From contig JANOQM010000079.1 in the NCBI GenBank assembly GCA_031422295.1, positions 1-49,748 on the forward strand: a stretch of 49,748 nt of DNA. Direction: 5' to 3'. The notes below the pieces were generated by a model that was given only the letters and a program-made list of their open reading frames with translations, was not told the origin of the DNA and made no database searches. A program made the position numbers and the translations under genes. This document shows positions 1-49,748 of the stretch, piece by piece (the stretch's first letter is position 1; each line of letters starts with the position of its first letter). Origin of the DNA: Rhodobacterales bacterium. Lineage in GTDB: Bacteria > Pseudomonadota > Alphaproteobacteria > Rhodobacterales > Rhodobacteraceae.

Positions 1-245
1 CCGGGCACGGATGAAGGCGGTCAATTCGGGGTCAGTGTCGATCCGCGACGGACTGCCAACGCGGTGCGCCGCGCGGTGCGGGTCAATCGGGGGTAAGGTG
101 TCTTGAACAGGGTCTTCAACAGGGCTTTGAAGGGGCTGTTCAAGACACCTTACCCCCGATTGACCCGCACCGCGCGGCGCACCGCGTTGGCAGTCCGTCG
201 CGGATCGACACTGACCCCGAATTGACCGCCTTCATCCGTGCCCGG
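1..245. repeat. Long inverted repeat (hairpin/cruciform). Arms 1-110 and 136-245 are perfect reverse complements. The central 111-135 contains a further 6-bp stem (114-119/127-132) around a 7-nt loop.
   Basis: Direct reading. The reverse complement of 1-110 equals 136-245 base for base. The palindrome begins exactly at window position 1. Confidence 0.9.
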
Positions 246-374
246 ATCGACCGGCTGACCTTCAAGGAAATCGCCGCCGATATCGCCGCGCAATTCCCGC
301 CCGAACGCCGCGCATCGGTGTCCGGTCTGCATCGCTGGTTTCACCGGCAAAAGCGGCACGGGGCGGGCCAATGA
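15..374 (+). CDS. Open frame without a start codon, running through both palindrome arms and ending in an ATGA overlap with the next gene. It is probably the 3' part of a gene whose true 5' end is masked or replaced by the left palindrome arm.
   Basis: There are no stops from 15 to 372-374 (TGA). No ATG or GTG start is visible. The stop overlaps the ATG at 371, which suggests translational coupling. The C-terminal part (246-374) looks like a real protein, ending ...FKEIAADIAAQF...SGLHRWF. Confidence 0.2.
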   Translation, partial: RRSIRGQCRSATDCQRGAPRGAGQSGVRCLEQGLQQGFEGAVQDTLPPIDPHRAAHRVGSPSRIDTDPELTAFIRARIDRLTFKEIAADIAAQFPPERRASVSGLHRWFHRQKRHGAGQ

Positions 375-718
375 CGCATCAACTCCCCGTCCTGCCTTAC
401 CCTAAACCCACGGCGCAAGTCGCACCCTATGTCGAGGCCCTTGGGTTCGACATGGCAATCACCTTCCTGTTGCAATTCGGCGGCGCTGAACTTTACATCG
501 CCAAAGACCCGAAAAGCCGGGGCCAGCTCGAAGCGCTTGTTGGCGCAGATCGGGCCAAAGCGCTTGGCGCAATCGACCACCGCCTGCAACGCCGCGTCCC
601 GCTGGCCAAACCGTGGCTGGCCGTCTGCTTTGCAACCCGTGGCATGGGCACAGCCGAAATCGCCAGAATGCTACGAACTTCCGACACAAGCGTCAGAAAG
701 TGGTTGAAAACATGCTAA
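371..718 (+). CDS. Mor-family (phage Mu middle-operon regulator-like) transcriptional activator, 115 aa
   Basis: It carries a GG-x-ELYI-x-K motif (QFGGAELYIAKD) and a C-terminal HTH (GMGTAEIARMLRTSDTSVRKWL). Both are as in the Mu Mor/C family (PF08765-like). Confidence 0.5.
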   Translation: MTHQLPVLPYPKPTAQVAPYVEALGFDMAITFLLQFGGAELYIAKDPKSRGQLEALVGADRAKALGAIDHRLQRRVPLAKPWLAVCFATRGMGTAEIARMLRTSDTSVRKWLKTC

Positions 719-954
719 AAGTCGAATGGCACGAAGACGAGATCGAAGCGGCAATGCGGTAGGATAAAGTGCGGGTTCCGCCCCAGTCCCGAAAACCCCA
801 ATCGCAGGATGTTGGCAAACATCATCTGAACCCGCAAATGAGGCCCCGTTACCGGCTCAAATTGGCTGAACAGGGGGTATCAGAACAGTTGAACACTAAC
901 ACTTACTTTTGCGGATGGGGCAGGGTAGGGTGCGTGATTTCACGCACCTTTCAC

Positions 955-2562
955 TTAAAACCCGATCAATGCGTAGCCAATCATCACAAGGGCCGAAACA
1001 GTCGTGATTATTTTTGCGCCCTTGTAAACTGCACTTTTATCAATCTCATGGATAAGAGATGGGGTCGCTTTTATCATCAATAGGATGCGCGCTGCGCGAC
1101 CAAACACCCGAACCTTCTCATCCCGCATTGAAAGTGCCAGAGTCCGATCTGCGGGGCCCAACGTGCGGTAGTTGGCCGAGAACCCCTTGGTATCATCAAC
1201 AATCGCCAGAATATCTTGCTGCCAGTCTGCCTGCCCTTGGCCCTCTGTGATATCCACAAGGACAGGCATTGCCTCTGTCATCAAATCCAACGCTGCCTCG
1301 GGCATTTCCGCGAAGGCCTGTGTTTCAATCAGCTTACGGTTCTGCGCCACATCCGGGTGCGTGGCCCTGATTCCCAATGCCCCTTCTTCTAGGGCGCGGA
1401 TCAGTCCCAAATTCTCTTCCGAAGCCGGCAATTCATCCGTCGCAATCTGGCGCACCAGCCCGGCATGAATGGCAGTAAAGTCCATTTCAATCCGCTGCGG
1501 ATCATTTCCGTAACGAGCAAAAGTCCGGTGAAGTACTCGCGCCTCTCGCGACGTCATTTGAAGGCCGTTCCTAGTATCTATTAGGACGTCCTCAAGTGCA
1601 TCCTGCGCCTGAGAAAGAGTAGCGCCAAGTAGGTCAGGTTTCGATATTGCTTGCGGCGAGAAAAAGAATTTCCCGGTATTCTGATTGAACTCGACTTTTT
1701 CGGCCAACAGGAGTTTTTCGGCGAGATGCTCCGTCCTAGCGTCCTCAATCTTGCTCGAGAGGTGGCCTGCGCCTTGCGTCCAACCGGAATCCGGAATAAC
1801 GGCAATTCTCCGATAGAAACTCCAGTCAATTACCTTTCCTTCGACAAAAGCCTCATACCAATTGGACCAAAAACGCCAATCTTGGCCCGATTTCCAAAAC
1901 GCTTCGGTTACAGAGGTGTATTCCAGTGGGTATATCAATATAGATCGGTTTTTGTTCGATTCGACAGTTTCATTATCCTCAGGATCTAGTAATTCGCCTT
2001 CATATATCGTGTCAGTTAGCCCATCTTTTGCATCGTGAGTTGAAACGAAAAGATCAAAATCATCAATCAAAGAGCTAGCGTCTGTTCCAGAGCACTGTGT
2101 TCGTCCGATTGATCGAATGACGCGATTAATCAATACGGCACGTTGGTCAGGTGGAGTCAAAAGGCTATTCAATAAAGAATCACACGATTCAACGACGCGT
2201 ATCTGGTTGATTCGCTTTGGTTTTGGCTTTATGTTCTTGAGTTGGACAATTGTTTCCTTGATCCTAATATCAATCTCTGGATTAGGTTGAACCATCCAAG
2301 AAGATGATACAACTAAGGCACGCAAAACAGGAATTACAATTTCAGCTACTTCTGAGGCCTTCCAGTCGTCACCTATGTAGCCCTTTCTGAAATGCGGGGA
2401 CAGCGCTTCAAGTCCACGAAAAGCTGCACGCCAGGCTAACTGCAAGCTAGCACTGCTGCCGAGTTCCCCGTTGATTAAGTCTTCGAGGTGTAAGCCATAT
2501 GAATCAACTGTTTCACTTCTCGCCAAATCTGCACCCCGTTTTTTTACTGGCACAATCTGCAC
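955..2562 (-). CDS. Hypothetical protein, 535 aa, with a C-terminal transmembrane anchor. It is transcribed divergently from lepA.
   Basis: Long ORF. The hydrophobic C-terminus reads [18 protein letters not shown]. Composition is mosaic: the N-terminal-coding part (about 1650-2562) and the extreme 3' end are visibly AT-richer than the central part. I recognise no family motif. Confidence 0.55.
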
Positions 2563-2656
2563 CGTCTTTCCTCACACGTCCACCCCCATCCCCCCTTGCA
2601 AAACCGCCCTTTTCCCCCCAATACCGGCCTCTGAAACCCCCATCAGGCCGCATCCC

Positions 2657-4456
2657 ATGCCCGACCTCGCCCATATCCGCAATTTCTCGATCGTGGCCCA
2701 TATCGACCACGGTAAATCCACCCTTGCCGACCGGCTGATCCAGGAAACCGGCACCGTCAAGGACCGGGATATGAAAGAGCAGATGCTTGATTCGATGGAT
2801 ATCGAGCGGGAGCGGGGGATTACCATCAAGGCCAACACGGTCCGCCTTGATTACACAGCGAAAAACGGCGAACACTATGTGTTGAACCTGATCGACACCC
2901 CCGGCCACGTCGACTTTGCCTACGAGGTGTCGCGGTCAATGCGCGCCGTCGAAGGCTCGCTTCTGGTGGTCGATGCATCGCAAGGGGTCGAGGCGCAGAC
3001 CCTTGCCAATGTCTATCAGGCGCTGGATGCCGGGCATGAAATCGTCCCCGTCCTGAACAAGATCGACCTGCCCGCCGCCGAACCCGACCGCATCCGCCAG
3101 CAGATCGAAGACGTCATCGGGCTCGACGCGTCCAACGCCGTCCTGATTTCCGCCAAATCCGGCATCGGCATCCCGGATGTGCTCGAGGCTATCGTCCACC
3201 GCCTCCCCGCCCCTAAAGGCGACCGCGACGCGCCGCTCAAGGCGATGTTGGTCGACTCGTGGTACGACAGCTACCTCGGCGTCGTCGTGATGATCCGGGT
3301 GATCGACGGGGTCGTCCGTAAAGGGGATCGCGTGCGGATGATGCAGACCGACGCGGTCTATGGCATCGACACGCTGGCCGTGTTGAAACCGCAAATGGTG
3401 CCGATTGCCGAACTGGGGCCGGGCGAAATCGGCGTCCTCACCGCCAGCATCAAACAGGTCCGCGACACCCGCGTTGGCGATACGATCACCAGCGAACGCA
3501 AGGGCTGCGAGGTCGCTTTGCCCGGCTTCAAACCCGCGCAGCCCGTCGTGTTCTGCGGCCTGTTCCCGGTCGATGCGGCGCAATTCGAGGATCTGCGCGA
3601 CTCCATCGAAAAACTCGCCCTGAACGATGCGTCTTTCTCCTATGAAATGGAAACCTCGGCGGCCTTGGGGTTTGGTTTTCGCTGCGGCTTCCTCGGGCTG
3701 TTGCATCTTGAGGTGATCCGCGACCGGATCGAGCGGGAGTATAATATCGACCTGATCACCACCGCCCCCTCGGTGGTGTATCACCTCTATATGAAAGACG
3801 GCACGGTGCGCGAATTGCACAACCCCGCCGACATGCCCGACCTCACACTCATCGACCACCTCGAAGAGCCGCGGATCAAGGCCACGATCCTGGTGCCCGA
3901 CGATTACCTCGGCGATATCCTCAAACTCTGTCAGGACCGGCGCGGCGTGCAGCTTGACCTGACCTATGCCGGGTCCCGCGCCATGGTTGTTTACGACCTC
4001 CCCCTCAACGAAGTGGTGTTCGATTTCTATGATAGGCTGAAAAGTGTTACCAAAGGGTATGCATCGTTCGACTACCAACTCTCCGCCTATCAGGAGGATA
4101 ATCTGGTCAAGATGTCGATCCTCGTGAACGACGAACCGGTCGACGCCCTGTCGATGATGGTCCACCGCGACCGGGCCGATATGCGGGGCAGGGCGATGGT
4201 GGAGAAACTGAAAGAGCTGATCCCGCGGCACATGTTCAAGATCCAGATCCAGGCGGCGATTGGCGGCAAGGTGATCGCGCGGGAGACTTTGTCGGCGCTG
4301 CGCAAGGACGTGACGGCGAAATGCTATGGCGGCGATGCGACGCGGAAACGCAAGCTGCTGGACAAGCAGAAGGCCGGGAAAAAGAAGATGCGGCAGTTCG
4401 GGAAGGTCGAGATTCCGCAGGAGGCGTTTATTTCGGCGTTGAAGATGGATGGGTGA
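2657..4456 (+). CDS. lepA: Elongation factor 4 (LepA), 599 aa
   Basis: The N-terminus reads [27 protein letters not shown], with G-domain motifs DTPGHVDF and NKID. The length matches LepA. The track ORF 2471.. is an upstream in-frame extension. Confidence 0.95.
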
Positions 4457-4461
4457 ATAAA

Positions 4462-5577
4462 ATGACACTGTTAGAAGAAGTTGAAATCGGTTCTCGCAGA
4501 GTTGCTACTGATGGAATCACGATGAGCATCGGAGAGCTGTCTACATACTATCGTGATGGTGATTTAAATATTAACCCCGAGTTTCAGCGTGCATTCCGAT
4601 GGACAATTGATAAGAAATCAAATCTAATTGAGTCCATTCTACTTTCAATTCCTATCCCATCAATTTTTGTATTCGAGAATGAAGATGGAACGTGGGAATT
4701 AGTAGACGGCCTTCAAAGACTTTCCACTATCTTTGAATTTATGGGGATTCTCCGAGAGCCCGACAAGAGTGCACGTCCACCATCATGCCTTATCGAAACG
4801 ATTTACCTCCCTAATTTGAGCAATGCCGTTTGGGAGAGGTCTAAGCGAGTAGTCGGAATTTCAGAAAAGACGCAAGTGCCAATTGAATCGGCTCTACAAC
4901 GTCGAATAAGAACTGCTAGAATACAAGTTGAAATTCTAAGGTTTACTAGCGACGTTGATACCAAATTTGATTTATTCCAAAGATTAAACAGAGGTGGAGA
5001 AACGGCTAATGCGCAAGAAGTCAGAAATAGTCTTTGCGTGATGGCTAGTGAATCTGGATTCAAAAAATTAAAGGCATATGCCTCAGACTCACTTTTTCAG
5101 GAACTATTTAAGATAACTGACACTGGGAAGGAGCAGCAGAAGCATATTGAGTATTTAATGCGTCTAGTTGTTCATACTTATTTTGACTTTGATACAAAAA
5201 AGGACTTGGAGTCATTCATCGACGATGGGATTAAGAAAGTCCTAACGGATGAAAAAAAATACCCTTGGAAAATCAAAATTAACAAAGCTCTTGAGCGCAT
5301 CAATAGTGCCTGCGGGGATGTGGCGCTTCTCCCTCGACTTGGAGAAACTAGAACAGCAAATCGGGTAAGCCTTCGGCAGCTGGAAGCAATCGCCGTTGGG
5401 GTTTCTCGAAACATTGATGCGATTGAAAAAGTGAAAAACCCCGATGCTTTTCTAAAGAAAAAGATTGAGAGTTTTTGGGATCAGCCAGAGGTGGAAAAGA
5501 TGTCAGCTGCGGGATTGAATAGTAGTGTTCGGCTTCAAAGAACCGTTCCATTTGGTCTGACTTGGTTTAGGCCATAG
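4462..5577 (+). CDS. DUF262 (ParB/Srx-like; GmrSD N-terminal-type) domain protein, 371 aa
   Basis: Signature INPEFQRAFRWT...LIESILLSIPIPSIFVFE...WELVDGLQRLSTI (DGLQR at nt 4705-4719). The start ATG at 4462 follows the lepA stop by 5 nt. The gene is visibly AT-rich relative to lepA. Confidence 0.85.
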   Translation: MTLLEEVEIGSRRVATDGITMSIGELSTYYRDGDLNINPEFQRAFRWTIDKKSNLIESILLSIPIPSIFVFENEDGTWELVDGLQRLSTIFEFMGILREPDKSARPPSCLIETIYLPNLSNAVWERSKRVVGISEKTQVPIESALQRRIRTARIQVEILRFTSDVDTKFDLFQRLNRGGETANAQEVRNSLCVMASESGFKKLKAYASDSLFQELFKITDTGKEQQKHIEYLMRLVVHTYFDFDTKKDLESFIDDGIKKVLTDEKKYPWKIKINKALERINSACGDVALLPRLGETRTANRVSLRQLEAIAVGVSRNIDAIEKVKNPDAFLKKKIESFWDQPEVEKMSAAGLNSSVRLQRTVPFGLTWFRP

Positions 5578-5584
5578 AACTGGT

Positions 5585-6289
5585 ATGCGGTCTCACCTAA
5601 CCAAGATGATGGAGTGGCGAACGCTAGAAATTGCGGAGATGAAGGCACTTCTGCCGCGGCAGTCTGATATGGGATTTGAATTATTTTGCCGAGGAGCTAT
5701 GGTCCTGTGTTATGCTCACTGGGAAGGAGCATTTAATGATTGCCTGAAGGTAGTCGTAGGCACATTGAAGTCAGGGGACATTGACTTAAGTCGAGCACAT
5801 CCCGGAATTTCCGCGCTATTTTTCTCCCGAGATATTGATTCTTTCCTGAATAGAAGGATCGAAGAAGATACTGTCGTTGAGCACTTAATTGCGTTTCACT
5901 TCCTGTGTCAGAAGTCGGTGAAGGGAGAGGTTGCAAATGCTCGTGCTGCCACGACGAGGTCAAATCTTAATTGGAATCGAATAGAAGTGGTATTTTCTAT
6001 ATTCGGATTCAGTTGGCCAAAGCTTCATTTGAAGAAGATATTCATTGAGCACAAGTTGTCGCGTCTACGTCATTCAATAGCACACGGCGAAGCTCCAAGA
6101 TTGACTAGAGTTGTCGCGTTGCAGCAGTTAGACGAAACAAGCATATTGTTAGATGAGATAGCTGAATATTTCCATGCAGTATATAGTTCGATTTTGCTAC
6201 CCCTCTCTGACCAGCCAAAGGTCAATAATTTGACCGTGCTACTTCCCGCCAAGTCTGCGACTGAAAGCACACCCTACACCAGCCCATAA
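5585..6289 (+). CDS. HEPN-like protein (MAE_28990/MAE_18760-like family), 234 aa
   Basis: It has an R-x4-H HEPN motif, RHSIAH (R162 at nt 6068-6070, H167 at 6083-6085). It is co-oriented 8 nt after the DUF262 gene and is AT-rich like it. Confidence 0.7.
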   Translation: MRSHLTKMMEWRTLEIAEMKALLPRQSDMGFELFCRGAMVLCYAHWEGAFNDCLKVVVGTLKSGDIDLSRAHPGISALFFSRDIDSFLNRRIEEDTVVEHLIAFHFLCQKSVKGEVANARAATTRSNLNWNRIEVVFSIFGFSWPKLHLKKIFIEHKLSRLRHSIAHGEAPRLTRVVALQQLDETSILLDEIAEYFHAVYSSILLPLSDQPKVNNLTVLLPAKSATESTPYTSP

Positions 6290-6397
6290 ACCCCGCCCCG
6301 CCCGCCGACCGCGACGATTACCACCACCAAACGGCCATCCTCGATCAGGTACACCACCCGCCAATCCCCCGCTTAATTGCGAGGGTTTCACCCACCC

Positions 6398-6532
6398 TCA
6401 CATCCCCGCCTGCACCTGTGCCCCCTCAGCCGTAATCGCCTGCCCAGCGGACTGGATATCCTGCCCGGCACCCTTGACCGTCTCGCATCCGGCCAAAGCT
6501 ACTATCACCAAAACCATCATCACACGTGTCAT
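6398..6532 (-). CDS. Entericidin EcnA/B-family small lipoprotein, 44 aa (below the ORF-track size cutoff)
   Basis: Translation: MTRVMMVLVIVALAGCETVKGAGQDIQSAGQAITAEGAQVQAGM. It has a lipobox (LAGC) and an entericidin-like GAGxDIQxxGQAI core. Confidence 0.6.
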   Translation of the reverse strand: MTRVMMVLVIVALAGCETVKGAGQDIQSAGQAITAEGAQVQAGM

Positions 6533-6722
6533 CGGTCACTCCTTTGGTTGATCCACAACCCCAACGCGCGGAACCCCGCCGACGTTCCACAGGCGATGCA
6601 ACGGAACCGTCACCCATCGGCGTTATACTGACACAACCGCAATGATGGAGCCTGCCATGACCTACCTGCCACATGCCTTTCTGGCCGCGACGACGCTGTT
6701 GATCTTGGCCAGCATCATGACC

Positions 6723-7469
6723 TCAACCATGATCTAAAAATAACTCAACCGCCGCCACAAACTCGCGGGGTTTTTCAGCGTGCAGCCAGTGGCCCGCGTC
6801 GGGGATTTTGGCAAAGCGGGCGTGGGGGAACAGGGTGCGGATTTGGGCGCGGTGTTCGGGCAGCACATAGTCGGACTGCGCCCCGGTCAGGAACAAGACT
6901 GGCCCGGTGAACACGCTCGACACCGTAGGAAACCCCATGATCGCGGGCATATTCGCGGCCAGCGCATCCAGATTAAGGCGCCAGCGTTTCCCTGCCAGAT
7001 CAAAGCTTTGCAGGAAAAACGCGGCGAGGACCGGATCATCCAGCCCCATCATCCCGGCGGCCTCGGCCCTGGTCGTCACCGCTGTCAAATCAACCCGGCG
7101 CATCGCCGCGATCTTGTCCAGCTGACTGTGGCCATAGGCGACCGGGGCGATGTCGGCCACGATCAGACGGCGCACCAGATCGGGCCGGGTCAGCGCCAGA
7201 ATCATCGCCGCCTTGCCACCCATGGAATGGCCCAGAACATCGCATTGGCCCTGAATCATCCCGGCCAGATCATCAGCCATATCCGGATAAGTTTGCGAGC
7301 GATTCCAATCACTTGCGCCATGATTGCGCATATCCACAGCGACTACTGGGCGCGCCTCAGACAGGCGTTTGGCAATCACCCCCCAGTTCCGCGCCGACCC
7401 AAATAATCCGTGCGCAATCAACAGCTTGGGCCGATCCGTCGGGCCGTCATGGACAATCGTGTTCAACAT
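6723..7469 (-). CDS. Alpha/beta-fold hydrolase (esterase-like), 248 aa
   Basis: HGLFGS oxyanion region, GHSMGG nucleophile elbow, and a downstream His. Confidence 0.85.
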   Translation of the reverse strand: MLNTIVHDGPTDRPKLLIAHGLFGSARNWGVIAKRLSEARPVVAVDMRNHGASDWNRSQTYPDMADDLAGMIQGQCDVLGHSMGGKAAMILALTRPDLVRRLIVADIAPVAYGHSQLDKIAAMRRVDLTAVTTRAEAAGMMGLDDPVLAAFFLQSFDLAGKRWRLNLDALAANMPAIMGFPTVSSVFTGPVLFLTGAQSDYVLPEHRAQIRTLFPHARFAKIPDAGHWLHAEKPREFVAAVELFLDHG

Positions 7470-7547
7470 GGCGCAACTCTACCTCTTGACAGGCCCAAAA
7501 GACCAGCCTCCCTTGCCGAAAACCCCCATCCATGGCATCCACCGCCG

Positions 7548-7919
7548 ATGACACCCCAAGACCTAGAGCCTCAGATCGCTGAAATTCGATCCCTGCTGGA
7601 ATCTCAGCTGCGGATCAAGGGGCGGAGTTTGGACCAGCAAATCGCACGTGCCGGTCGGCTTCTCCCGCGCAAAGTACGGGGCGAGGCGCTGTTTTTGGCG
7701 CAGGCTAACATGCTGATTCAAAATCCAAAATTGGCGCGGATGATCAATCAGGACCGGGTCGGTCAGGCGCATCGAACCGTCGCCGGATACTTGAATTCTA
7801 TCGATCCCAAAGATCGGCGCAAAGGTCGCCTTCTGAACGTCGCGGGCATCATCGCATTCAACGGCCTTCTCATCGCGGGATTGGTCATCGCAATCTTGGT
7901 CTGGCGCGGTTTTGTGTAA
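7548..7919 (+). CDS. Hypothetical protein with a C-terminal TM helix, 123 aa. The track ORF starts at 7410, but that start overlaps the divergent hydrolase gene.
   Basis: ORF. I chose the ATG at 7548 (MTPQDLEP...). The C-terminus reads IIAFNGLLIAGLVIAILVW. Confidence 0.45.
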   Translation: MTPQDLEPQIAEIRSLLESQLRIKGRSLDQQIARAGRLLPRKVRGEALFLAQANMLIQNPKLARMINQDRVGQAHRTVAGYLNSIDPKDRRKGRLLNVAGIIAFNGLLIAGLVIAILVWRGFV

Positions 7920-7980
7920 GGTGGGTTTTAACCCACTCTTCAAGCTAACCTGCTGAAAGTAAGGTGGGTTTTAACCCACC
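7917..7980. terminator. Two tandem copies of a hairpin (aaggtgggttttaacccacc) between convergent genes; probably a bidirectional terminator.
   Basis: Copies at 7917-7936 and 7959-7978. Each forms a gtgggtt/aacccac 7-bp stem. They lie between the end of the 7548-7919 gene and the end of glyA. Confidence 0.6.
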
Positions 7981-7984
7981 TCTG

Positions 7985-9280
7985 CTACATCCCCGGATAA
8001 ATCGGGAACCGCTCACACAGCGCAACAACCTCGGTCCGGACCTGCGCCTCGACCGCGTCATTGCCGTCCTCGCCGCTTGCGGCCAGCCCATCGACAACCT
8101 GCACGATCCAGCGGCCAATCTGGCGAAACTCCACTTCCGTAAAGCCGCGCGTGGTGCCGGCAGGGGTGCCCAAACGGACGCCACTGGTCACCGTCGGTTT
8201 CTCGGGATCGAACGGTATCCCATTCTTATTGCAGGTAATATAAGCGCGGCCCAATGCCTTTTCAGTCGCATTGCCCTTGACCCCTTTGGGGCGCAGATCG
8301 ACCAGCATCAGGTGGCTGTCGGTGCCGCCGGTGACAATATCGATGCCCCCCTTCATCAGTTCATCGGCCAAGGCCCGCGCGTTCTTGATGACGTGGCGCT
8401 GATAGGATTTGAACTCGGGGCGCAACGCCTCGCCAAAGGCCACGGCTTTGGCGGCGATCACATGCATCAGTGGTCCACCCTGAATGCCCGGAAAAATCGC
8501 GGAATTGACTTTCTTTGCAATGGCTTCGTCATTGGTCAGGATCATCCCGCCGCGCGGACCGCGCAGGGTTTTATGGGTCGTTGTGGTCGCCACATGCGCA
8601 TGCGGAAAGGGCGAAGGATACAGACCAGCGGCGACCAGCCCGGCAAAATGTGCCATATCTACCAATAAGATAGCACCCACGCTGTCAGCAATCGCCCGCA
8701 TCCGGGGAAAGTCGATGATCCGCGGAATGGCCGATCCGCCAGCAATGATCATCTTGGGCTGATGTTCGGTCGCCAGACGCTGGACCTCGTCATAATCCAA
8801 CAAGGAATCCTGCTGGCGGACCCCATATTGTTTAGCGTTAAACCATTTCCCGGATTGGTTCGGCTTGGCCCCATGGGTAAGGTGACCACCGGCATCCAAA
8901 GACATCCCAAGGATCGTGTCACCCGGGGTCAACAGCGCCTGAAACACGCCTTGATTGGCCTGCGATCCTGAATTTGGCTGCACATTGGCAAAGCCACATC
9001 CAAACAGCACACAGGCCCGCTCAATCGCCAAATTCTCTGCCACATCAACGAATTGGCAGCCGCCGTAATAGCGCTTACCGGGATATCCCTCGGCGTATTT
9101 ATTGGTCATCACACCGCCCTGCGCCTCCATCACGGCGGCCGAGACGATGTTTTCGGACGCGATCAATTCGATCTCGTGCCGTTGACGCCCCAGCTCGGAT
9201 GTCATGGCTGCAAACAGCGCAGGATCGCGGGTCACAAGACCTTCGGTGAAAAATCCATCGTCGCGGGTGGGAGCATTCAT
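7985..9280 (-). CDS. glyA: Serine hydroxymethyltransferase, 431 aa
   Basis: Reads ...[38 protein letters not shown]... The [14 protein letters not shown]-lysine motif is present. Confidence 0.95.
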
Positions 9281-9428
9281 CGGCTAAAATCCTTGTACGG
9301 GGAAGGGATGCAACTTCATACCGCAAGCGACCCCGCGTCAAAAGGGCCAAAACGACGCGCTTGGCCTTGCCCGCGACCGCTTGCTTTCACAGTGATTTAG
9401 GCCGCATGTTACCCGCAGCAAGAGGACC

Positions 9429-10196
9429 GTGATGACCCGCAGCCGCATTCACTTTACCGCAAGCGAGGCCCCTGTTGCCCAGGAAGGGCTGGTCGTTCTG
9501 GCCGCCCGCTATGGCAATCTTCCGCTGGGTCAGGCCGAGGTGGTTGTGGCCTTGGGTGGCGACGGGTTCATGCTGCACACGTTGCATGCCACTGAAATGA
9601 CGGGCATTCCGGTTTACGGCATGAACCGCGGCACAGTTGGTTTTTTGATGAATGCCTATGCTGCCGACGACCTGCCTGAGCGGCTGCAACAGGCCGAGGA
9701 AACCGTGATCAACCCCTTGGCGATGACCGCGACAACGGTTGGCGGGGATATTCATAAAGCGTTGGCAATCAACGAGGTGAGCCTGCTGCGCGCCGGGCCA
9801 CAGGCGGCGAAACTGCGCATTACGGTCGATGGTACATTGCGGATGAATGAACTGGTCTGCGATGGCGCCTTGGTCGCAACCCCTGCCGGATCAACAGCTT
9901 ACAACTATTCCGCGCATGGCCCGATCCTGCCCATCGGCACCGATGTGTTGGCCCTGACGGCCATGGCCGCCTTTCGCCCCCGGCGCTGGCGCGGCGCCTT
10001 GCTGCCCAAGAACGCTGTGGTCCGGTTTGATGTGATCGAGGCCGACAAGCGCCCGGTGATGGCCGATGCCGATTCCCGGTCCGTGCGCGATGTGCTCAGT
10101 GTCGAGATCAGAAGCGAGCCAAAGGTGCAGCACCGGCTTTTGTTTGATACCGGGCATGGCCTGGACGAGCGGTTGCAGCAAGAGCAGTTTTCTTAA
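9429..10196 (+). CDS. nadK: NAD kinase, 255 aa
   Basis: GGDGFML motif, NEVSL, and the GSTAYNYSAHGP motif. Confidence 0.9.
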   Translation: MMTRSRIHFTASEAPVAQEGLVVLAARYGNLPLGQAEVVVALGGDGFMLHTLHATEMTGIPVYGMNRGTVGFLMNAYAADDLPERLQQAEETVINPLAMTATTVGGDIHKALAINEVSLLRAGPQAAKLRITVDGTLRMNELVCDGALVATPAGSTAYNYSAHGPILPIGTDVLALTAMAAFRPRRWRGALLPKNAVVRFDVIEADKRPVMADADSRSVRDVLSVEIRSEPKVQHRLLFDTGHGLDERLQQEQFS

Positions 10197-11011
10197 TTCG
10201 CCAGGCGCGAAAACAGGATCATTTCGGGCCGGTATTCGAAGTGCATCCCGTCAAAATGGTTCCATTTCCCGCCCCAGATAAAGCCATATTGTTCAAACAC
10301 CCGCACTAAATTTTCTGGGATTTTATTATCATAATCAGTTACTTGCCCCTCGGCTGCGCCGGTCCAGCGCCAGTAGCCACCCAATTCGGTACTGATATCA
10401 AAAGCTGCGCCAAAGCTGTGGCTGGACAGCCGGTCCGTACCTGCGATGACCCGCCAGTTGAAACTGCCGCCGGCATTTTCAGAATACGGATCAAAATTCG
10501 GCGCCATCCCTTGGATCATCCTCAGGGCGACAGATAGTTGTGTCGCAACGCAGTGCTTTGTAGTCATCGCAAAACTGGTTTGCAGGTTTGGACCGGAGTA
10601 GGCCACAGTCACAAGGCTGGCCCGTGCGGCGGCTTCTGTGTCGCCATATAACGCCCGAAACAGCGCGTCGTTGCGAATGCGGCCGGGGTCGGTCCACGGG
10701 GTTAAGCGGCGGGTCAGGTCAAAATCCAGCGGGTAGACATAAGTGAACATATCCCCAATTGTGGCTGCATTCAGCCGCTCGGCGGGGCTGATCGTACGGG
10801 CCGGAACAAAGGGAATCACACGCCCCTCGGCTGTCCGAAATAGGCCCGCAACCCGGTCCAGATCGGACCCCGGATAGGCCGTCTCAAGCGCGGTTTCCAT
10901 TGGGTCGCCGCCGCTGGGCAGGGGTAGCGCGCTGAAATCCACCGCCACGCAATCTGCCAGCCCGGGCATTGCCAACAACCCGGCTAACAGCCCAAAAACC
11001 AGCGCGCGCAT
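10193..11011 (-). CDS. Secreted M15-family metallopeptidase (D-Ala-D-Ala carboxypeptidase / VanY-like), 272 aa
   Basis: I chose the start at 11011 (MRALVFGLLAGLLAMPG signal peptide; an aaggag RBS precedes it). The C-terminal motif is GGKWNHFDGMHFE. The track ORF extends upstream to 11368. Confidence 0.8.
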   Translation of the reverse strand: MRALVFGLLAGLLAMPGLADCVAVDFSALPLPSGGDPMETALETAYPGSDLDRVAGLFRTAEGRVIPFVPARTISPAERLNAATIGDMFTYVYPLDFDLTRRLTPWTDPGRIRNDALFRALYGDTEAAARASLVTVAYSGPNLQTSFAMTTKHCVATQLSVALRMIQGMAPNFDPYSENAGGSFNWRVIAGTDRLSSHSFGAAFDISTELGGYWRWTGAAEGQVTDYDNKIPENLVRVFEQYGFIWGGKWNHFDGMHFEYRPEMILFSRLAN

Positions 11012-11269: not shown

Positions 11270-11704
11270 ATGACATTTAACCGAATTCTGACCAGCGCCA
11301 CACTCGCGCTTTTGATCGTTTGCGCCGCCCCGGTTCAGGCCGACGGCAACCGGGTCAATCTGCAACAATACGGCGTTGATAACGGCCTGGGTGCCGCGCA
11401 GCAGGGCTATTTAAACCGGTTGTCCGTCACGCAGGACGGCTGGGCCAATACTGCGATTTCCACCCAGGACGGGTCGCGCAACCGGACGGTTTTGGGCCAG
11501 ACCGGGTATAACAACAACATCGTCTCAACGCAGGCCGGGCGCTGCAATGTGACCGGGATTGCGCAGTTTGGCCGTAATAATTCTGTCGATGCAGCCCAGA
11601 ACGGGGCCTGTAATGCGCTGGGTGTGATCCAGACCGGAACGGGTAACCGGGCAATTGCCCGGCAAAACGGCAGCGGCAATATTGCCGTGATCGTGCAGGA
11701 CTGA
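11270..11704 (+). CDS. csgA: Curlin-repeat protein (CsgA-like major curli subunit), 144 aa
   Basis: Signal peptide, then repeated Q-x-G-x-x-N-x-A-x-x-x-Q units, for example NRLSVTQDGWANTAISTQDGSRN and VSTQAGRCNVTGIAQFGRNNS. Confidence 0.75.
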   Translation: MTFNRILTSATLALLIVCAAPVQADGNRVNLQQYGVDNGLGAAQQGYLNRLSVTQDGWANTAISTQDGSRNRTVLGQTGYNNNIVSTQAGRCNVTGIAQFGRNNSVDAAQNGACNALGVIQTGTGNRAIARQNGSGNIAVIVQD

Positions 11705-43196: not shown

Positions 43197-43286
43197 GGAG
43201 GCGTGGCTGAGAGGCCGAAAGCACTCGGTTGCTAACTGAGCGTGGGGGGAACTCCACCGTGGGTTCGAATCCCACCGCCTCCGCCA
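43197..43286 (+). tRNA. tRNA-Ser (anticodon GCU), long variable arm, encoded CCA
   Basis: Acceptor stem ggaggcg/cgcctcc. Anticodon stem ctcgg/ctgag with loop ttGCTaa. Long extra arm. T-arm ggttcgaatcc. Confidence 0.9.
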
Positions 43287-43501
43287 CTTGCATGTCCTTC
43301 ATTCATCACACATGTCGTTGATGTTTATCTGTAAATCAGAATTTTAACTCGCTGACTTCGGGCCTAGGGCGCTCCTTCATTGAATTTTGCTATACATAAT
43401 GCTTTATATTCTTCGCTACATGGTGCCTGAATGCCGGGAGCTGAGCGGATCGATCGACCGCTTAGCGCAAATGCTGATACCCAACACATCGAGCTCATCA
43501 G

Positions 43502-44770
43502 ATGAAGATCACCTTGCGGGGCAATCAACTCTATCTCTACAGGCGCGTCCCGAAGCGTTACGGGGCCGTGGAGTCGCGCCAGTTTGTCTGGGTCAGCCTC
43601 CACACGGACTCGCAAACAGTGGCCGCGCTCAAGGCGACCACCGCCTGGGAGTTAATGGTCGAAGGCTGGGAGGCCAAGCTAGCCGGCGATACCACCGACG
43701 CTGAGGCCCGCTTTCAGGCGGCACGGGACCTCGCTGCAGTGCGCGGCTTTCGTTATCTGGATGCAGCGTCGGTTGCCAAACTGCCGCGCAGCGATTTGCT
43801 GGAGCGGATCGAAGCCGTCAAACAATCGCCGAAAGGCCCCGACTTTCGAGAGGCTGGAGCCTTTCTCGGCGGTGCCGCGGAACCTGAGATTACGATCAGC
43901 CGTGCACTGGAGCTTTACTGGACCCTGGCTGCAGATCGGACAATCGGCAAAAGCGATGACCAGCTTCGGCGCTGGAAAAACCCGTTGATCAAATCAGTCA
44001 AGAATTTGGTTGCCCAGATCGGGGACAAGCCGTTGTCGCATATCTCCACAGATGACATGCTCGATTTCAGGCAATGGTGGGTCGAAAGGATCGCCGAAAA
44101 AGGCTTGACCGCGAATAGCGCCAACAAGGACCTGATTCACATTGGCAGCATTTTGAAAACTGTGAACAACATGAAGCGCCTCGGACTAATCCTGCCACTT
44201 TCAGGGCTGTCGCTGAAAGAGGTTGGGCAGCAGGTTAGGCCCCCATTTAGCGACATTTGGATTAGGGACAAGCTACTTGCGCTAGGCGCATTGAGGGGCC
44301 TCAATACCGAGGCTCGCTGCATCCTGCTGGGCATGATCAATACCGGATATCGACCCAGTGAAGGGGCGGCACTCTTGCCGGCGCACATCCGGCTCGATCA
44401 CAAAGTGCCGCACATTTCCATCGAGGCAGATGTTCGGCAGTTGAAATCGGCCAACGCCAAGCGGATTATCCCTTTGACCGGGATCAGTCTTGCCGCACTG
44501 CGCGAATGCAGCAACGGCTTTCCGCGATACCGCGACAACCCGGGCCTGTCCGACACGATCAACAAGTTTCTGTCCGAGAACGAGCTGAAGGAGTCGCCCC
44601 GCCACTCTGTGTATTCGCTGCGCCACGCCTTTGAAGACAGAATGCTGGAAGCTAGTTTCGACGAGCGTATCAGACGGGATCTCTTGGGGCACAGCTTGGA
44701 TCGCGAGCGCTACGGCAAGGGGGGATCACTGGAACATACCCACGACCTCCTTCAGGCCATCGCCCTCTGA
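43502..44770 (+). CDS. int: Tyrosine-type site-specific integrase (phage-integrase family), 422 aa
   Basis: C-terminal catalytic region: ...RPSEGAAL..., HSVYSLRHAFEDRMLEA, and RRDLLGHSLDRERYGKG (the R..H-x-x-R..Y pattern). Confidence 0.8.
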   Translation: MKITLRGNQLYLYRRVPKRYGAVESRQFVWVSLHTDSQTVAALKATTAWELMVEGWEAKLAGDTTDAEARFQAARDLAAVRGFRYLDAASVAKLPRSDLLERIEAVKQSPKGPDFREAGAFLGGAAEPEITISRALELYWTLAADRTIGKSDDQLRRWKNPLIKSVKNLVAQIGDKPLSHISTDDMLDFRQWWVERIAEKGLTANSANKDLIHIGSILKTVNNMKRLGLILPLSGLSLKEVGQQVRPPFSDIWIRDKLLALGALRGLNTEARCILLGMINTGYRPSEGAALLPAHIRLDHKVPHISIEADVRQLKSANAKRIIPLTGISLAALRECSNGFPRYRDNPGLSDTINKFLSENELKESPRHSVYSLRHAFEDRMLEASFDERIRRDLLGHSLDRERYGKGGSLEHTHDLLQAIAL

Positions 44771-45496: not shown

Positions 45497-46900
45497 AGCA
45501 TTGGTCAGACTCAACCGGAGCCGTCCTGACAGCAAGGTGGAGGGATTCGTGACGAGGTAGCGAAGCTGTGCCCCGTTAGGCGACAAGCCGGCAGCACTGC
45601 GCCCCTTGCTCGGCAATGCGTCACCTGCCAGTTTGCGTGACCAGTTTGGGGCAAAGTGTTTATGAAAGGCCCACGACGCAGTCGAACACAGAAACGACTG
45701 GTTTGGAATCTCTGTGCAAGCGCCAGACGTTCGACCACGTGTCCACTTCGAGCGCGACCAGTATTTCGCTGATCACCGATCAGTGACTACGTGCGGTACG
45801 CATGGCATGAACATAGCGTGGATCGAAGGGATTTGCACCGAGTGGCGACGGGTCATACCAGTCAATATTGCCCTCTGCACTCCTGCGCTACGGTTGTTGG
45901 TCGCTCTTCATGCTCCTGAAAGGGTGCCTCTACGTCTGGGACTCAGCTGGAGCGTCGCTGACGGCAAGGTCAGTCCTGCCTGCCACCCCATTGTGAGTCA
46001 AAACCAAGACGGCCCCAGGTGACTCGCGTTGGGGCTTCTAGCGCGATGCCCTGTGTTCATCCGTCTCCATGGCAGCACCTCCTTGGTGCCGCAAGTGAAT
46101 CAGTGAGTTGGCCCGCACACAAGCGATTTAATGGGTCCTGAGCCTAGGTATGCTTCGAACTATTTCAAAGGGCAGAGTAAGACCATCCTGAGCCACAGCA
46201 TTTTGCTTGGTATACAGGCAATAGTAGAAATGCAAACTTCATAAAAGCTAAGAAACATTGCCACCACACCGTATTAATTCATTTAGATCGTCCTGCAGCC
46301 CACGACTCAGCATTTGCGAGCTGGTAACGATTTGCTCCTCTGATCGCACCGTCCAGCTGAATTTGATAAGGACCAACTCGATAAATTAGCGTATGGGCGG
46401 CGTCAATTCGCACATGGAGCATGAAGTCTGAAATTCTTTCGCTGGGCAGAATGATGATGTGAATTGTCTTGCGACTTATTTTGGGGCGATATTTCAGCTT
46501 CGAGAGTTTGTCGCGTATGTTTATTTTTGTTGGTGAGATAGTTTGTCCAAATAGGAAGTCACGCCACAGGCAATATAAAGTAATTATTGCGAGGGTTTTG
46601 CTTTATATATTGCAATGCAGTTGAAGATATGGCGCGTCATCCGCGCCCATTTCAGTATCAGAATGATTCAACGAGTTGACATAACTTCAATCTTCTGATC
46701 CCATTATTCTAGGACGGAATAGATGAAAATTTTTGTGAATTCGAAAGTTCTAATTTCTATGTGATTTTAATAGCTAGAGTTGTTGATGAGAGTGAAAAGC
46801 ACGTGGCACACTTGAGAAGATATCTGATCGTTGATAGGATCAATTTTCATTCCCAACGTCGTTGACGTCGGTTGCTGTTCCCAAAGGCAAGGAAGCTAGG

Positions 46901-49211: not shown

Positions 49212-49609
49212 ATGTCATACGGAATTCGACTTAAAGTCTGGGGCGACTATGCTCTTTTTACCCGGCCCGAATTGAAAGTCGAACGCCTGACCTATGATGT
49301 CATCACCCCCTCTGCCGCGCGGGGTATCCTTGAGGCGATCCATTGGAAACCGTCGATCCGCTGGGTGATTGACCGCATCCATGTGCTGACACCGATCCGT
49401 CACCAGTCAATCCGCAGGAACGAAGTGGGGCACAAGGCCCCGGCGGGCAGCATCAAACGAGCGATGAACCGGGGCGACCTGGAGGGCTTGGGGATTTTGG
49501 TTGATGACCAGAAGGTGCGCCAGCAGCGGGCGTCCACGGTGCTGGTCAAACCCACCTATCTGATCGAGGCGCATTTTGTTTTGACTGACAAGGCGGAGGC
49601 AGAGGATAA
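49212..49609 (+). pseudogene. cas5: cas5c (type I-C Cas5), truncated after about 132 codons by an IS insertion
   Basis: Reads MSYGIRLKVWGDYALFTRPELKVERLTYDVITPSAARGILEAIHWKPSIRWVIDRIHVL... up to ...IEAHFVLTDKAEAEDN. The sequence then switches to an IS3-type inverted repeat at 49610. A ggtggagg RBS precedes the ATG at 49212. Confidence 0.75.
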
Positions 49610-49748
49610 TGAACCGCCCCGGGTTTACCGGAGGGCAAAACTCTCGGAGAATTGCCCATTATGGAACATGCACAAAAGAAGAAGACCGCGAAGCCGTATT
49701 CACCTGAGTTCCGCGAACGAGCGGTGCGGCTTGCGATGGAACACCGCG
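49610..49748 (+). mobile_element. IS3-family (IS3 group) insertion sequence, left end. The left inverted repeat starts TGAACCGCCCCGGG... The element continues beyond the window.
   Basis: The inverted repeat tgaaccgccccgggtttaccggagggcaaaactc closely resembles the E. coli IS3 terminal repeat. It is followed 51 nt later by an OrfA start. Confidence 0.7.
49661..49748 (+). CDS. IS3-family transposase OrfA (HTH part), 5' fragment
   Basis: Reads MEHAQKKKTAKPYSPEFRERAVRLAMEHR. The K-rich stretch plus YSPEFRxxAV is the canonical IS3 OrfA N-terminus. Confidence 0.65.
   Translation, partial: MEHAQKKKTAKPYSPEFRERAVRLAMEHR

What the first reader, a model, noticed from the sequence alone, without database searches (positions are those of the whole stretch)
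1..245. Perfect ~110-bp-arm palindrome beginning exactly at window position 1
Positions 1-110 are the exact reverse complement of 136-245. The 25-nt centre has a further 6-bp stem. A perfect inverted duplication of this length is very unusual in bacterial chromosomes. An ORF (15-374) runs without a start codon through both arms and is closed by a TGA at 12-14 inside the left arm. That is what one expects if the left arm is an artificial fold-back copy of genuine sequence, such as a long-read chimera or a contig-end inverted duplication. The alternatives are a genuine hairpin end, such as a telomere-like or cruciform structure of a phage-related element, or a recombination hotspot.
Basis: seen in the sequence. 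Interest (0 to 1): 0.6.

Follow-up and report, generated by a model that had tools for sequence, protein, structure and literature searches.

The report
Fold-back assembly artefact at contig end
The 245-base palindrome at the start of the window is real in the sequence, but it is almost certainly a sequencing and assembly fold-back at a contig end, inside a small Mu-like mobile element, and not a structure of the organism's genome.

Summary
Positions 1-110 are the exact reverse complement of 136-245, and only 13 central bases break the symmetry.

- Window 1-140 is the reverse complement (139/140) of the natural sequence seen in a related metagenome contig. Homology on that strand stops abruptly at 141.
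- The junction is therefore at 136-140 (shared CTGTT), not at the centre (123).
- The natural lower strand 106-140 is a small quasi-palindrome. Its 3'-terminal CTGTT pairs with AACAG (106-110), so a snapped-back 3' end extended on its own strand gives exactly this sequence.
- A k-mer model shows that the first fold-back-specific 141-mer starts at window position 1. The other end of the window stops 139 nt into an IS3-like element. Both fit a k=141 de Bruijn contig.
- All 26 close homologues of the interrupted ORF have about 48 further N-terminal residues, which the window lacks.

The genuine sequence (136-901) is the right end of a compact Mu-like transposable element.

Reads could not be checked, so a real in-vivo inverted duplication keeps about 10%. 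Interest is low.

The parts
1..110 (.). Left arm. It is a reverse-complement copy of 136-245 and is not in its genomic place.
   Evidence: It is 110/110 complementary to 136-245. It carries the same strain-specific base as the right arm (34 mirrors 212) relative to L004. On the + strand it is only 41/135 identical to the natural upstream sequence of L004, which is random level.
111..135 (.). Centre. This is the natural 25 nt (CCCCTTCAAAGCCCTGTTGAAGACC in gene orientation), present here in inverted orientation.
   Evidence: It is 25/25 identical to the reverse complement of L004 and 12/25 identical to L004 in gene orientation.
136..140 (.). Fold-back junction. CTGTT is shared by the natural lower-strand continuation (CTGTT[T/G]AACGG in relatives) and by the start of the right arm (CTGTTCAAGAC).
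   Evidence: Minus-strand homology to L004 runs 1-140 (139/140) and is lost from 141 onward. Plus-strand homology starts at 136.
106..140 (+). Natural quasi-palindrome, read here on the lower strand of the gene. AACAG(106-110) pairs with CTGTT(136-140), and 113-119 pairs with 127-133. This is the proposed snap-back primer-template.
   Evidence: The DNA fold gives -5.7 kcal/mol with the 3' CTGTT paired. The sequence and fold are identical in the natural L004 sequence.
136..374 (+). Genuine 3' part (78 codons plus stop) of a conserved ORF of 127-131 aa from the Mu-like element. Its first ~48 codons and its start codon are missing from the contig.
   Evidence: There are 26 homologues at 58-92% identity, most of them 123-136 aa. 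The alignment shows that the window matches only from ...VQDTLPPIDPH onward.
371..718 (+). Mor-like late transcriptional activator gene of the element. It is intact.
   Evidence: It matches PHROG 836 'late transcriptional activator' at 9e-18. It also gives a blastn hit to that gene in Rhodobacter phage RC1 and Rhodovulum phage RS1.
136..901 (+). Genuine right-terminal segment of a compact Mu-like transposable element. The right end is ...TGAACACTAACA at 901.
   Evidence: Homology with L002 and L004 continues to 901 and then stops. In L002 the next gene is host priA; in the window it is an unrelated 535-aa ORF followed by lepA.
49610..49748 (+). The other contig end: the first 139 nt of an IS3-family element that interrupts cas5. 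It is included only as evidence that the window is a whole k~141 de Bruijn contig.
   Evidence: The cas5 reading frame is broken at 49610 and a transposase ORF starts at 49662. This IS end occurs once in the window. It has distant matches to IS3-family transposase ends on plasmids.

Best explanation
The palindrome is an inverted (fold-back) chimera that a short-read de Bruijn-graph assembler fixed at the end of a contig.

What the real genome holds. The ORF continues upstream of position 136 as ...GCCGTT[A/C]AACAG-CCCCTTCAAAGCCCTGTTGAAGACC-CTGTTCAAGACACC..., inside a compact Mu-like element.

How the fold-back formed (inferred).
- A single-stranded lower-strand molecule, or a nascent strand, ended at ...GAAGGGGCTGTT-3'.
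- It folded on the natural quasi-palindrome at 106-140, so that its 3' CTGTT paired with AACAG (106-110).
- A polymerase then extended it on its own strand. The enzyme could be an end-repair or amplification polymerase; a replication polymerase is less likely.
- This yields a perfect copy of 1-105 in reverse complement, which is window 141-245 and beyond.

How the assembler fixed it (inferred).
- In a graph with k=141, only the 141-mers that start at window positions 1-135 are specific to this junction. Everything further left is identical to natural k-mers on the other strand.
- A contig that follows the chimeric path therefore starts exactly at position 1.
- The natural continuation was probably lost because it lies in a mobile element that is repeated or variable in the sample.

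What is shown and what is inferred.
- Shown: the orientation of each segment, the junction and its microhomology, the natural hairpin, the k-mer arithmetic, and the absence of the junction from relatives.
- Inferred: which enzyme step made the fold-back, which assembler was used, and why the natural path was dropped.
For: 1. Window 1-140 matches the reverse complement of the natural L004 sequence at 139/140. The break comes at 141. The + strand of 1-135 matches natural upstream sequence at only 41/135.

2. The centre 111-135 is 25/25 identical to the reverse complement of L004 and 12/25 in gene orientation.

3. The natural 35-nt quasi-palindrome folds with its 3' end paired, and it is identical in L004.

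4. In the k-mer model, fold-back-specific 141-mers span window 1-275, so the first starts at position 1. For k=127 the start would be 15, and for k=119 it would be 23.

5. The other end of the window stops 139 nt into an IS3-like element.

6. 26 close homologues carry a conserved N-terminus that the window lacks. Five independent related contigs (L002/L003, L004, L012, L013/L014, L005) read through the site without a fold-back.

7. Both arms carry the same strain-specific base (34/212), so the left arm was copied from this locus itself.

8. The literature describes this mechanism. ssDNA with short reverse-complementary regions of about 6 nt, including same-strand hairpins, is filled in at end repair and gives artefactual inverted chimeras (PMC8458033). 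More than 85% of MDA chimeras are inverted, and more than 70% show 2-21 nt of priming complementarity (PMC1855051). Unitigs can spell sequence that is absent from the genome, and this carries over into MEGAHIT and SPAdes contigs (PMC9528984).
Against: No reads, coverage, assembly graph or contig header were available, so the artefact is inferred and not observed.

The assembler kept the chimeric path and not the natural one. This requires the natural 142-mers across C'|R (the natural 25-nt centre abutting the right arm at 136) to have been missing or pruned, which is unexpected if the fold-back was a rare molecule. It would follow naturally if the fold-back were the main form in the sample.

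The upstream sequence used to define the microhomology comes from relatives that are 82-99% identical over the region, not from the source organism.

The right end gives 139 nt of IS, not the 140 expected from the simplest model.
Confidence: 0.82

Rival explanations
1. A real inverted duplication in the organism, or in a sub-population. Replication-fork template switching at the same quasi-palindrome (106-140) produced a fold-back that truncates the Mu-like element. The assembler then reports as much of it as k allows.
For: The junction signature, a natural imperfect inverted repeat plus 5-nt microhomology, is the same whether the template switch happened in vivo or in vitro. The assembler followed the fold-back path and not the natural one, which is easier to explain if the fold-back is abundant. 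This follows from the graph logic behind.
Against: It would remove the start and 48 codons of a conserved ORF and separate an otherwise intact right end (both ORFs open) from the rest of the element. No relative shows it. A palindrome with long arms and a 25-nt spacer is expected to be unstable in bacteria; this rests on established knowledge and was not tested here. The coincidence of the contig start with 142-k says nothing either way about arm length.
Confidence: 0.1
2. A long-read chimera. Either a nanopore read ran through template and complement strands, or a PacBio read lacked its adapter, and a long-read assembler carried the result into the contig end.
For: Inverted-repeat chimeras are the commonest false chimeras in ligation-based nanopore libraries, at 0.18-7.33% of reads (PMC13141652).
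Against: Such chimeras join at a molecule end and give kilobase-long arms. Here the visible arm is cut at exactly the length set by k=141. The other contig end is a 139-nt stub of an IS element, which is typical of short-read graphs, whereas long reads would span an IS. The arms are error-free, 110/110.
Confidence: 0.05
3. A genuine covalently closed hairpin end (telomere) of a linear replicon or phage, read around the tip.
For: The palindrome sits at the very start of the sequence, and the locus is phage-related (Mu-like).
Against: Of the 25 axial positions, 13 are not self-complementary. Relatives continue through the site inside a conserved ORF and do not end there. The window is ordinary chromosome (lepA, glyA, aroA, rpsA). 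Mu-type elements are integrated transposons, and the right end of this one lies at 901, not here. No telomere resolvase appeared among the proteins tested, but that scan was not exhaustive.
Confidence: 0.02
4. A functional palindrome, such as an operator, a cruciform or a recombination site of the element.
For: None beyond the symmetry itself. TTGAACAG-like motifs also occur near the element's right end (858-895).
Against: The long arms are coding sequence of one ORF copied in reverse. Homologous elements have only the 35-nt quasi-palindrome, and it is not even conserved in L002.
Confidence: 0.01

Closest known systems
Artefactual inverted (fold-back) chimeras from snapped-back single-stranded DNA filled in during library preparation or amplification (PMC8458033; MDA chimeras, PMC1855051)
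   Same: Two segments of one locus are joined in opposite orientation. The junction has a short reverse-complementary microhomology of 5 nt, within the reported ranges of about 6 nt and 2-21 nt. The junction sits next to a natural hairpin on the same strand.
   Different: Here the chimera is seen in an assembled contig and not in reads. The library method is unknown, and the chimera replaced the natural path.
Unsafe unitigs and inverted-loop or palindrome artefacts of de Bruijn-graph assemblers (Rahman and Medvedev 2022, PMC9528984)
   Same: A contig end spells sequence that is not in the genome. The length of the spurious part is fixed by k, and the structure is an inverted loop on a bidirected graph.
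   Different: That paper treats error-free data and exact palindromes. Here the inverted loop needs chimeric reads, because the natural microhomology is only 5 nt, far below any k used.
Quasipalindrome-templated template switching in vivo, including tandem-inversion-duplication-type rearrangements (from general knowledge; no paper was read here)
   Same: The same geometry: an imperfect inverted repeat that guides a strand switch.
   Different: In-vivo events usually only correct the quasi-palindrome to perfection, or they give duplications with two junctions. Only one junction is visible here, at a contig end, and its presence in the organism is unproven.
Hairpin telomeres of N15-type phages, Borrelia and the Agrobacterium linear chromosome
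   Same: A terminal palindrome in an assembly.
   Different: The axis is imperfect, there is no resolvase context, relatives are continuous across the site, and the setting is chromosomal.

Membership tests
Fold-back chimeric artefact at a de Bruijn contig end | The two joined segments are the same locus in opposite orientations, each collinear with natural sequence up to the junction. | tested here: met
   Window 1-140 matches the reverse complement of L004 at 139/140. From 136 onward the window is collinear with the L004 + strand.
Fold-back chimeric artefact at a de Bruijn contig end | There is a short reverse-complementary microhomology at the junction, able to prime. | tested here: met
   CTGTT (136-140) pairs with AACAG (106-110). 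The natural 35-nt hairpin folds with its 3' end paired.
Fold-back chimeric artefact at a de Bruijn contig end | The junction is absent from independent related sequences. | tested here: met
   L002/L003, L004, L012, L013/L014 and L005 all lack it, and 26 homologous proteins keep the N-terminus. The same species was not available.
Fold-back chimeric artefact at a de Bruijn contig end | The spurious part lies at a contig terminus, and its length is set by the assembler's k. | tested here: met
   The first fold-back-specific 141-mer starts at window position 1. The other end is a 139-nt IS stub. The assembler and its k are inferred, not known.
Fold-back chimeric artefact at a de Bruijn contig end | Read-level signature: few, duplicated or strand-biased junction reads, with the natural junction present at normal coverage. 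| not testable with these tools
   No reads or assembly graph were available.
Hairpin telomere (protelomerase type) | Perfect self-complementarity through the axis. | tested here: not met
   13 of the 25 central positions are not complementary.
Hairpin telomere (protelomerase type) | The site is the physical end of the replicon in related elements. | tested here: not met
   Relatives continue upstream for kilobases through gpI, gpT, GemA, MuB and MuA.
Hairpin telomere (protelomerase type) | A telomere resolvase is encoded by the replicon. | tested here: inconclusive
   None appeared among 17 window proteins scanned against Pfam. The window was not scanned exhaustively, and the rest of the genome is unknown.
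Mu-type transposon end (attR/attL) | The feature coincides with the element terminus, where homology between copies at different insertion sites stops (...CA end). | tested here: not met
   The element terminus is at 901 (...TGAACACTAACA), 760 nt to the right of the junction.
In-vivo quasipalindrome template-switch rearrangement | The junction lies at a natural imperfect inverted repeat. | tested here: met
In-vivo quasipalindrome template-switch rearrangement | The rearranged molecule is present in the cells' DNA at genomic abundance. | not testable with these tools
   This needs reads, PCR or an independent assembly.

The most novel reading that the evidence does not exclude
The fold-back could be a real DNA structure in the sampled population. 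In that reading, an in-vivo template switch at the 35-nt quasi-palindrome inside a compact Mu-like element produced a large inverted duplication, or a hairpin-capped broken end, next to lepA. The assembler shows only the k-limited tip of it.
Probability: 0.08. Interest if true: 0.35.

Novelty: not a real feature. Interest (0 to 1): 0.08.

Why it matters
The value is mainly for quality control.
- Positions 1-135 should be trimmed. Equivalently, 111-135 could be inverted and 1-110 removed.
- The ORF at 15-374 should be annotated as a 5'-truncated gene at a contig edge, not as an odd start-less ORF or a hairpin element.

The case also gives a simple, checkable rule for such artefacts in short-read assemblies. 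A terminal palindrome is suspect when its junction lies beside a natural mini-hairpin and its distance from the contig end equals k minus the microhomology. Here 141 is the first non-shared base, with k=141.

If the structure were real, it would be an example of quasi-palindrome-driven inverted duplication in a marine alphaproteobacterium. That would be of moderate interest only.

Tried and rejected
1. Retrieving the source contig or a same-species genome failed by every route.
- Exact-protein look-ups of the Mor-like protein and GlyA found nothing on record.
- The genome-contig scan returned only distant relatives, Rhodobacter capsulatus SP108 and Paracoccus aminovorans at 56-60%.
- Exact degenerate 38-mer scans of JGI metagenomes and IMG/VR gave 0 hits, and the IMG/VR protein scan gave 0.
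- Homologues of the neighbouring 535-aa ORF are at most 67% identical, with Roseobacter-group names.
- So the test 'what lies upstream of 136 in the same genomic context' could not be done. Only homologous elements at other insertion sites were available.

2. Plasmid and phage DNA searches with 111-2600 gave no plasmid match. The only phage match was a weak hit to the Mor gene of RC1 and RS1.

3. I considered a purely graph-made fold-back without chimeric reads and rejected it. The natural reverse-complementary overlap is only 5 nt (7 of 8), far below any k.

4. I considered that the left arm comes from a second, inverted copy of the element and rejected it. The arms are 110/110 identical, including a strain-specific base, and the join is inside an ORF and not at an element end.

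5. I checked whether other MEGAHIT contigs that break near this site (L012, L013) carry terminal palindromes. They do not.

6. A literature search for a description of terminal hairpin artefacts in metagenome contigs found nothing specific.

Full report
**Observation.** The first 245 bases are a near-perfect palindrome.
- A self reverse-complement comparison finds mismatches only at 111-113, 120-126 and 133-135. So 1-110 is exactly complementary to 136-245, and the centre contains the 6-bp stem CTTCAA/TTGAAG.
- As single-stranded DNA it folds at -176 kcal/mol, against -52 +/- 4 for shuffles.
- It is the only long inverted repeat in the window.
- The frame 15-374 is open behind a TGA at 12-14, and its first in-frame start codon is at 222.

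**Context.** The window is ordinary chromosome of a Roseobacter-group alphaproteobacterium.
- It carries lepA, glyA, a NAD-kinase-like gene, aroA and rpsA. The names of homologues of a neighbouring ORF point to Roseovarius, Aliiroseovarius and Ruegeria.
- The right end of the window stops 139 nt inside an IS3-family element that interrupts cas5.
- Together with the non-round length, this indicates that the window is a complete short-read contig.

**What the interrupted gene is.**
- The part of the ORF right of the palindrome centre has 26 close homologues (58-92% identity), nearly all 123-136 aa long.
- They share a conserved N-terminus of about 48 residues (M..TPDE.EQLAIDLAVA...RVIQWAVKQ...). 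The window lacks it, and similarity begins at ...VQDTLPPIDPH.
- The contigs that encode these homologues show the gene as the penultimate or last gene of a compact Mu-like element: HTH repressor, MuA-type DDE transposase, MuB, small ORFs, GemA, major head protein gpT, head protease gpI, this ORF, and a Mor-like late activator. Host genes follow directly.
- In the window, homology to these elements runs from 136 to 901 and ends at ...TGAACACTAACA. After that the sequences diverge: priA in L002, and an unrelated 535-aa ORF followed by lepA here.
- So the contig starts inside a mobile element, about 770 bp from its right end. That is a typical place for an assembly to break.

**The decisive comparison.** I aligned the window with the closest natural sequence, L004, an ENA metagenome contig.
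- Window 1-140 equals the reverse complement of L004 at 139 of 140 positions. The single difference (34) mirrors the same difference at 212 in the right arm. Homology on that strand collapses from 141 onward.
- On the gene strand, window 1-135 matches the natural upstream sequence at only 41/135.
- The 25-nt centre is 25/25 identical to the reverse complement of L004, and 12/25 identical in gene orientation.
- The window is therefore two natural segments of the same locus joined head to head: the reverse complement of [natural 25 nt + first 110 nt of the right arm], then the right arm itself.
- The join is at 136-140. There CTGTT is common to the natural lower-strand continuation (CTGTT[T/G]AACGG in all relatives) and to the right arm (CTGTTCAAGAC).
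- The breakpoint is not at the symmetry centre.

**Mechanism.**
- The natural lower strand 106-140, AACAG-GG-TCTTCAA-CAGGGCT-TTGAAGG-GG-CTGTT, is a quasi-palindrome. It folds (-5.7 kcal/mol) with the 3'-terminal CTGTT paired to AACAG, and the same sequence and fold exist in natural L004.
- A strand ending at 140 is thus a self-primed template. Extending it copies 105 down to 1, producing exactly 141-245.
- This matches the documented origin of artefactual inverted chimeras. ssDNA with short reverse-complementary regions of about 6 nt, including same-strand hairpins, is filled in by T4 polymerase at end repair (PMC8458033). In MDA, more than 85% of chimeras are inverted, and more than 70% show 2-21 nt of priming complementarity (PMC1855051).
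- Which enzymatic step acted here is inferred.

**Why the contig starts exactly at the end of the arm.** I modelled the natural locus plus a fold-back molecule with long arms and listed the k-mers that occur only in the fold-back.
- For k=141 they start at window positions 1-135, giving a span of 1-275.
- For k=127, 119, 99 and 77 the first would start at 15, 23, 43 and 65.
- Everything left of position 1 is indistinguishable from natural k-mers on the other strand, so a contig that follows the chimeric path must begin at 1.
- k=141 is, from my own knowledge, the default largest k of MEGAHIT. The related ENA contigs are named k141_..., which shows how common such assemblies are, but the assembler of this window is not known.
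- The 139-nt IS stub at the other end fits the same k to within one base.
- It is documented that unitigs, and the MEGAHIT and SPAdes contigs built from them, can spell sequence that is absent from the genome (PMC9528984).

**What remains open.**
- I had no reads, and the source organism was not found in any collection.
- The contig follows the chimeric path and not the natural one. So the natural 142-mers across the junction must have been missing or pruned.
- That is plausible for a low-coverage, multi-variant mobile element. At least three variants of this region exist in public metagenomes, including one that lacks gpT-gpI and the ORF's N-terminus.
- A fold-back that is genuinely abundant in the sample would give the same result. 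I therefore keep about 10% for a real in-vivo template-switch rearrangement.
- A hairpin telomere or a functional palindrome is effectively excluded. The axis is imperfect, relatives read through the site inside an ORF, the element's true end is at 901, and the setting is chromosomal.

**Verdict.**
- This is not a biological feature. Positions 1-135 should be trimmed, and the ORF should be treated as 5'-truncated at a contig edge.
- Interest is low. The compact Mu-like element, noticed in passing, is the more interesting object in this corner of the window.

Noticed in passing
window 136-901; L005:~1850-10490; L002:1-5133; L008:~1900-10300 (Rhodobacter capsulatus SP108); L013, L014: A compact Mu-like transposable element of about 8.4-8.6 kb. 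It carries only an HTH repressor, a MuA-type transposase, MuB, small ORFs, GemA, the major head protein gpT (~50% identical to phages RC1 and RS1), the head protease gpI, a Mor-like activator and a 124-131-aa ORF. It has no portal, terminase or tail genes. Host genes flank it directly at different insertion sites in several genomes, including a cultured isolate. The gene order T then I is the reverse of phage Mu, as far as I know. One variant (L013/L014) lacks gpT-gpI. It could be a transposable, capsid-encoding phage satellite or a conserved defective prophage. I found no description of it.
   Followed up: partly
window 49213-49748: A type I-C cas5 gene is interrupted at 49610 by an IS3-family element (end sequence TGAACCGCCCCGGG..., transposase ORF from 49662). 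The contig ends 139 nt into the IS. cas3 lies just upstream (46862-49144).
   Followed up: partly
window 43197-44770: A tRNA-Ser(GCT) gene at 43197-43286 is followed by a tyrosine-integrase gene (43502-44770). This is the likely left border of a genomic island that carries the cas3-cas5 genes.
   Followed up: no
window 4321-6289: A low-GC (44-48%) two-gene islet lies directly after lepA. It holds a GmrSD-N/DUF262 protein (4321-5577) and a HEPN protein of the MAE_28990/RiboL-PSP type (5585-6289). It is a likely anti-phage defence pair.
   Followed up: no
window 955-2562 (- strand): A 535-aa ORF of lower GC (51%) lies between the Mu-like element's end and lepA. It has no Pfam domain. Its homologues are hypothetical proteins across Roseobacter-group genera, and a few have leucine-rich-repeat domains attached.
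   Followed up: partly
window 11270-11704: A small secreted-looking ORF with curlin-associated repeats (Pfam Curlin_rpt, 6e-11). This suggests a curli-like amyloid subunit in a marine alphaproteobacterium.
   Followed up: no
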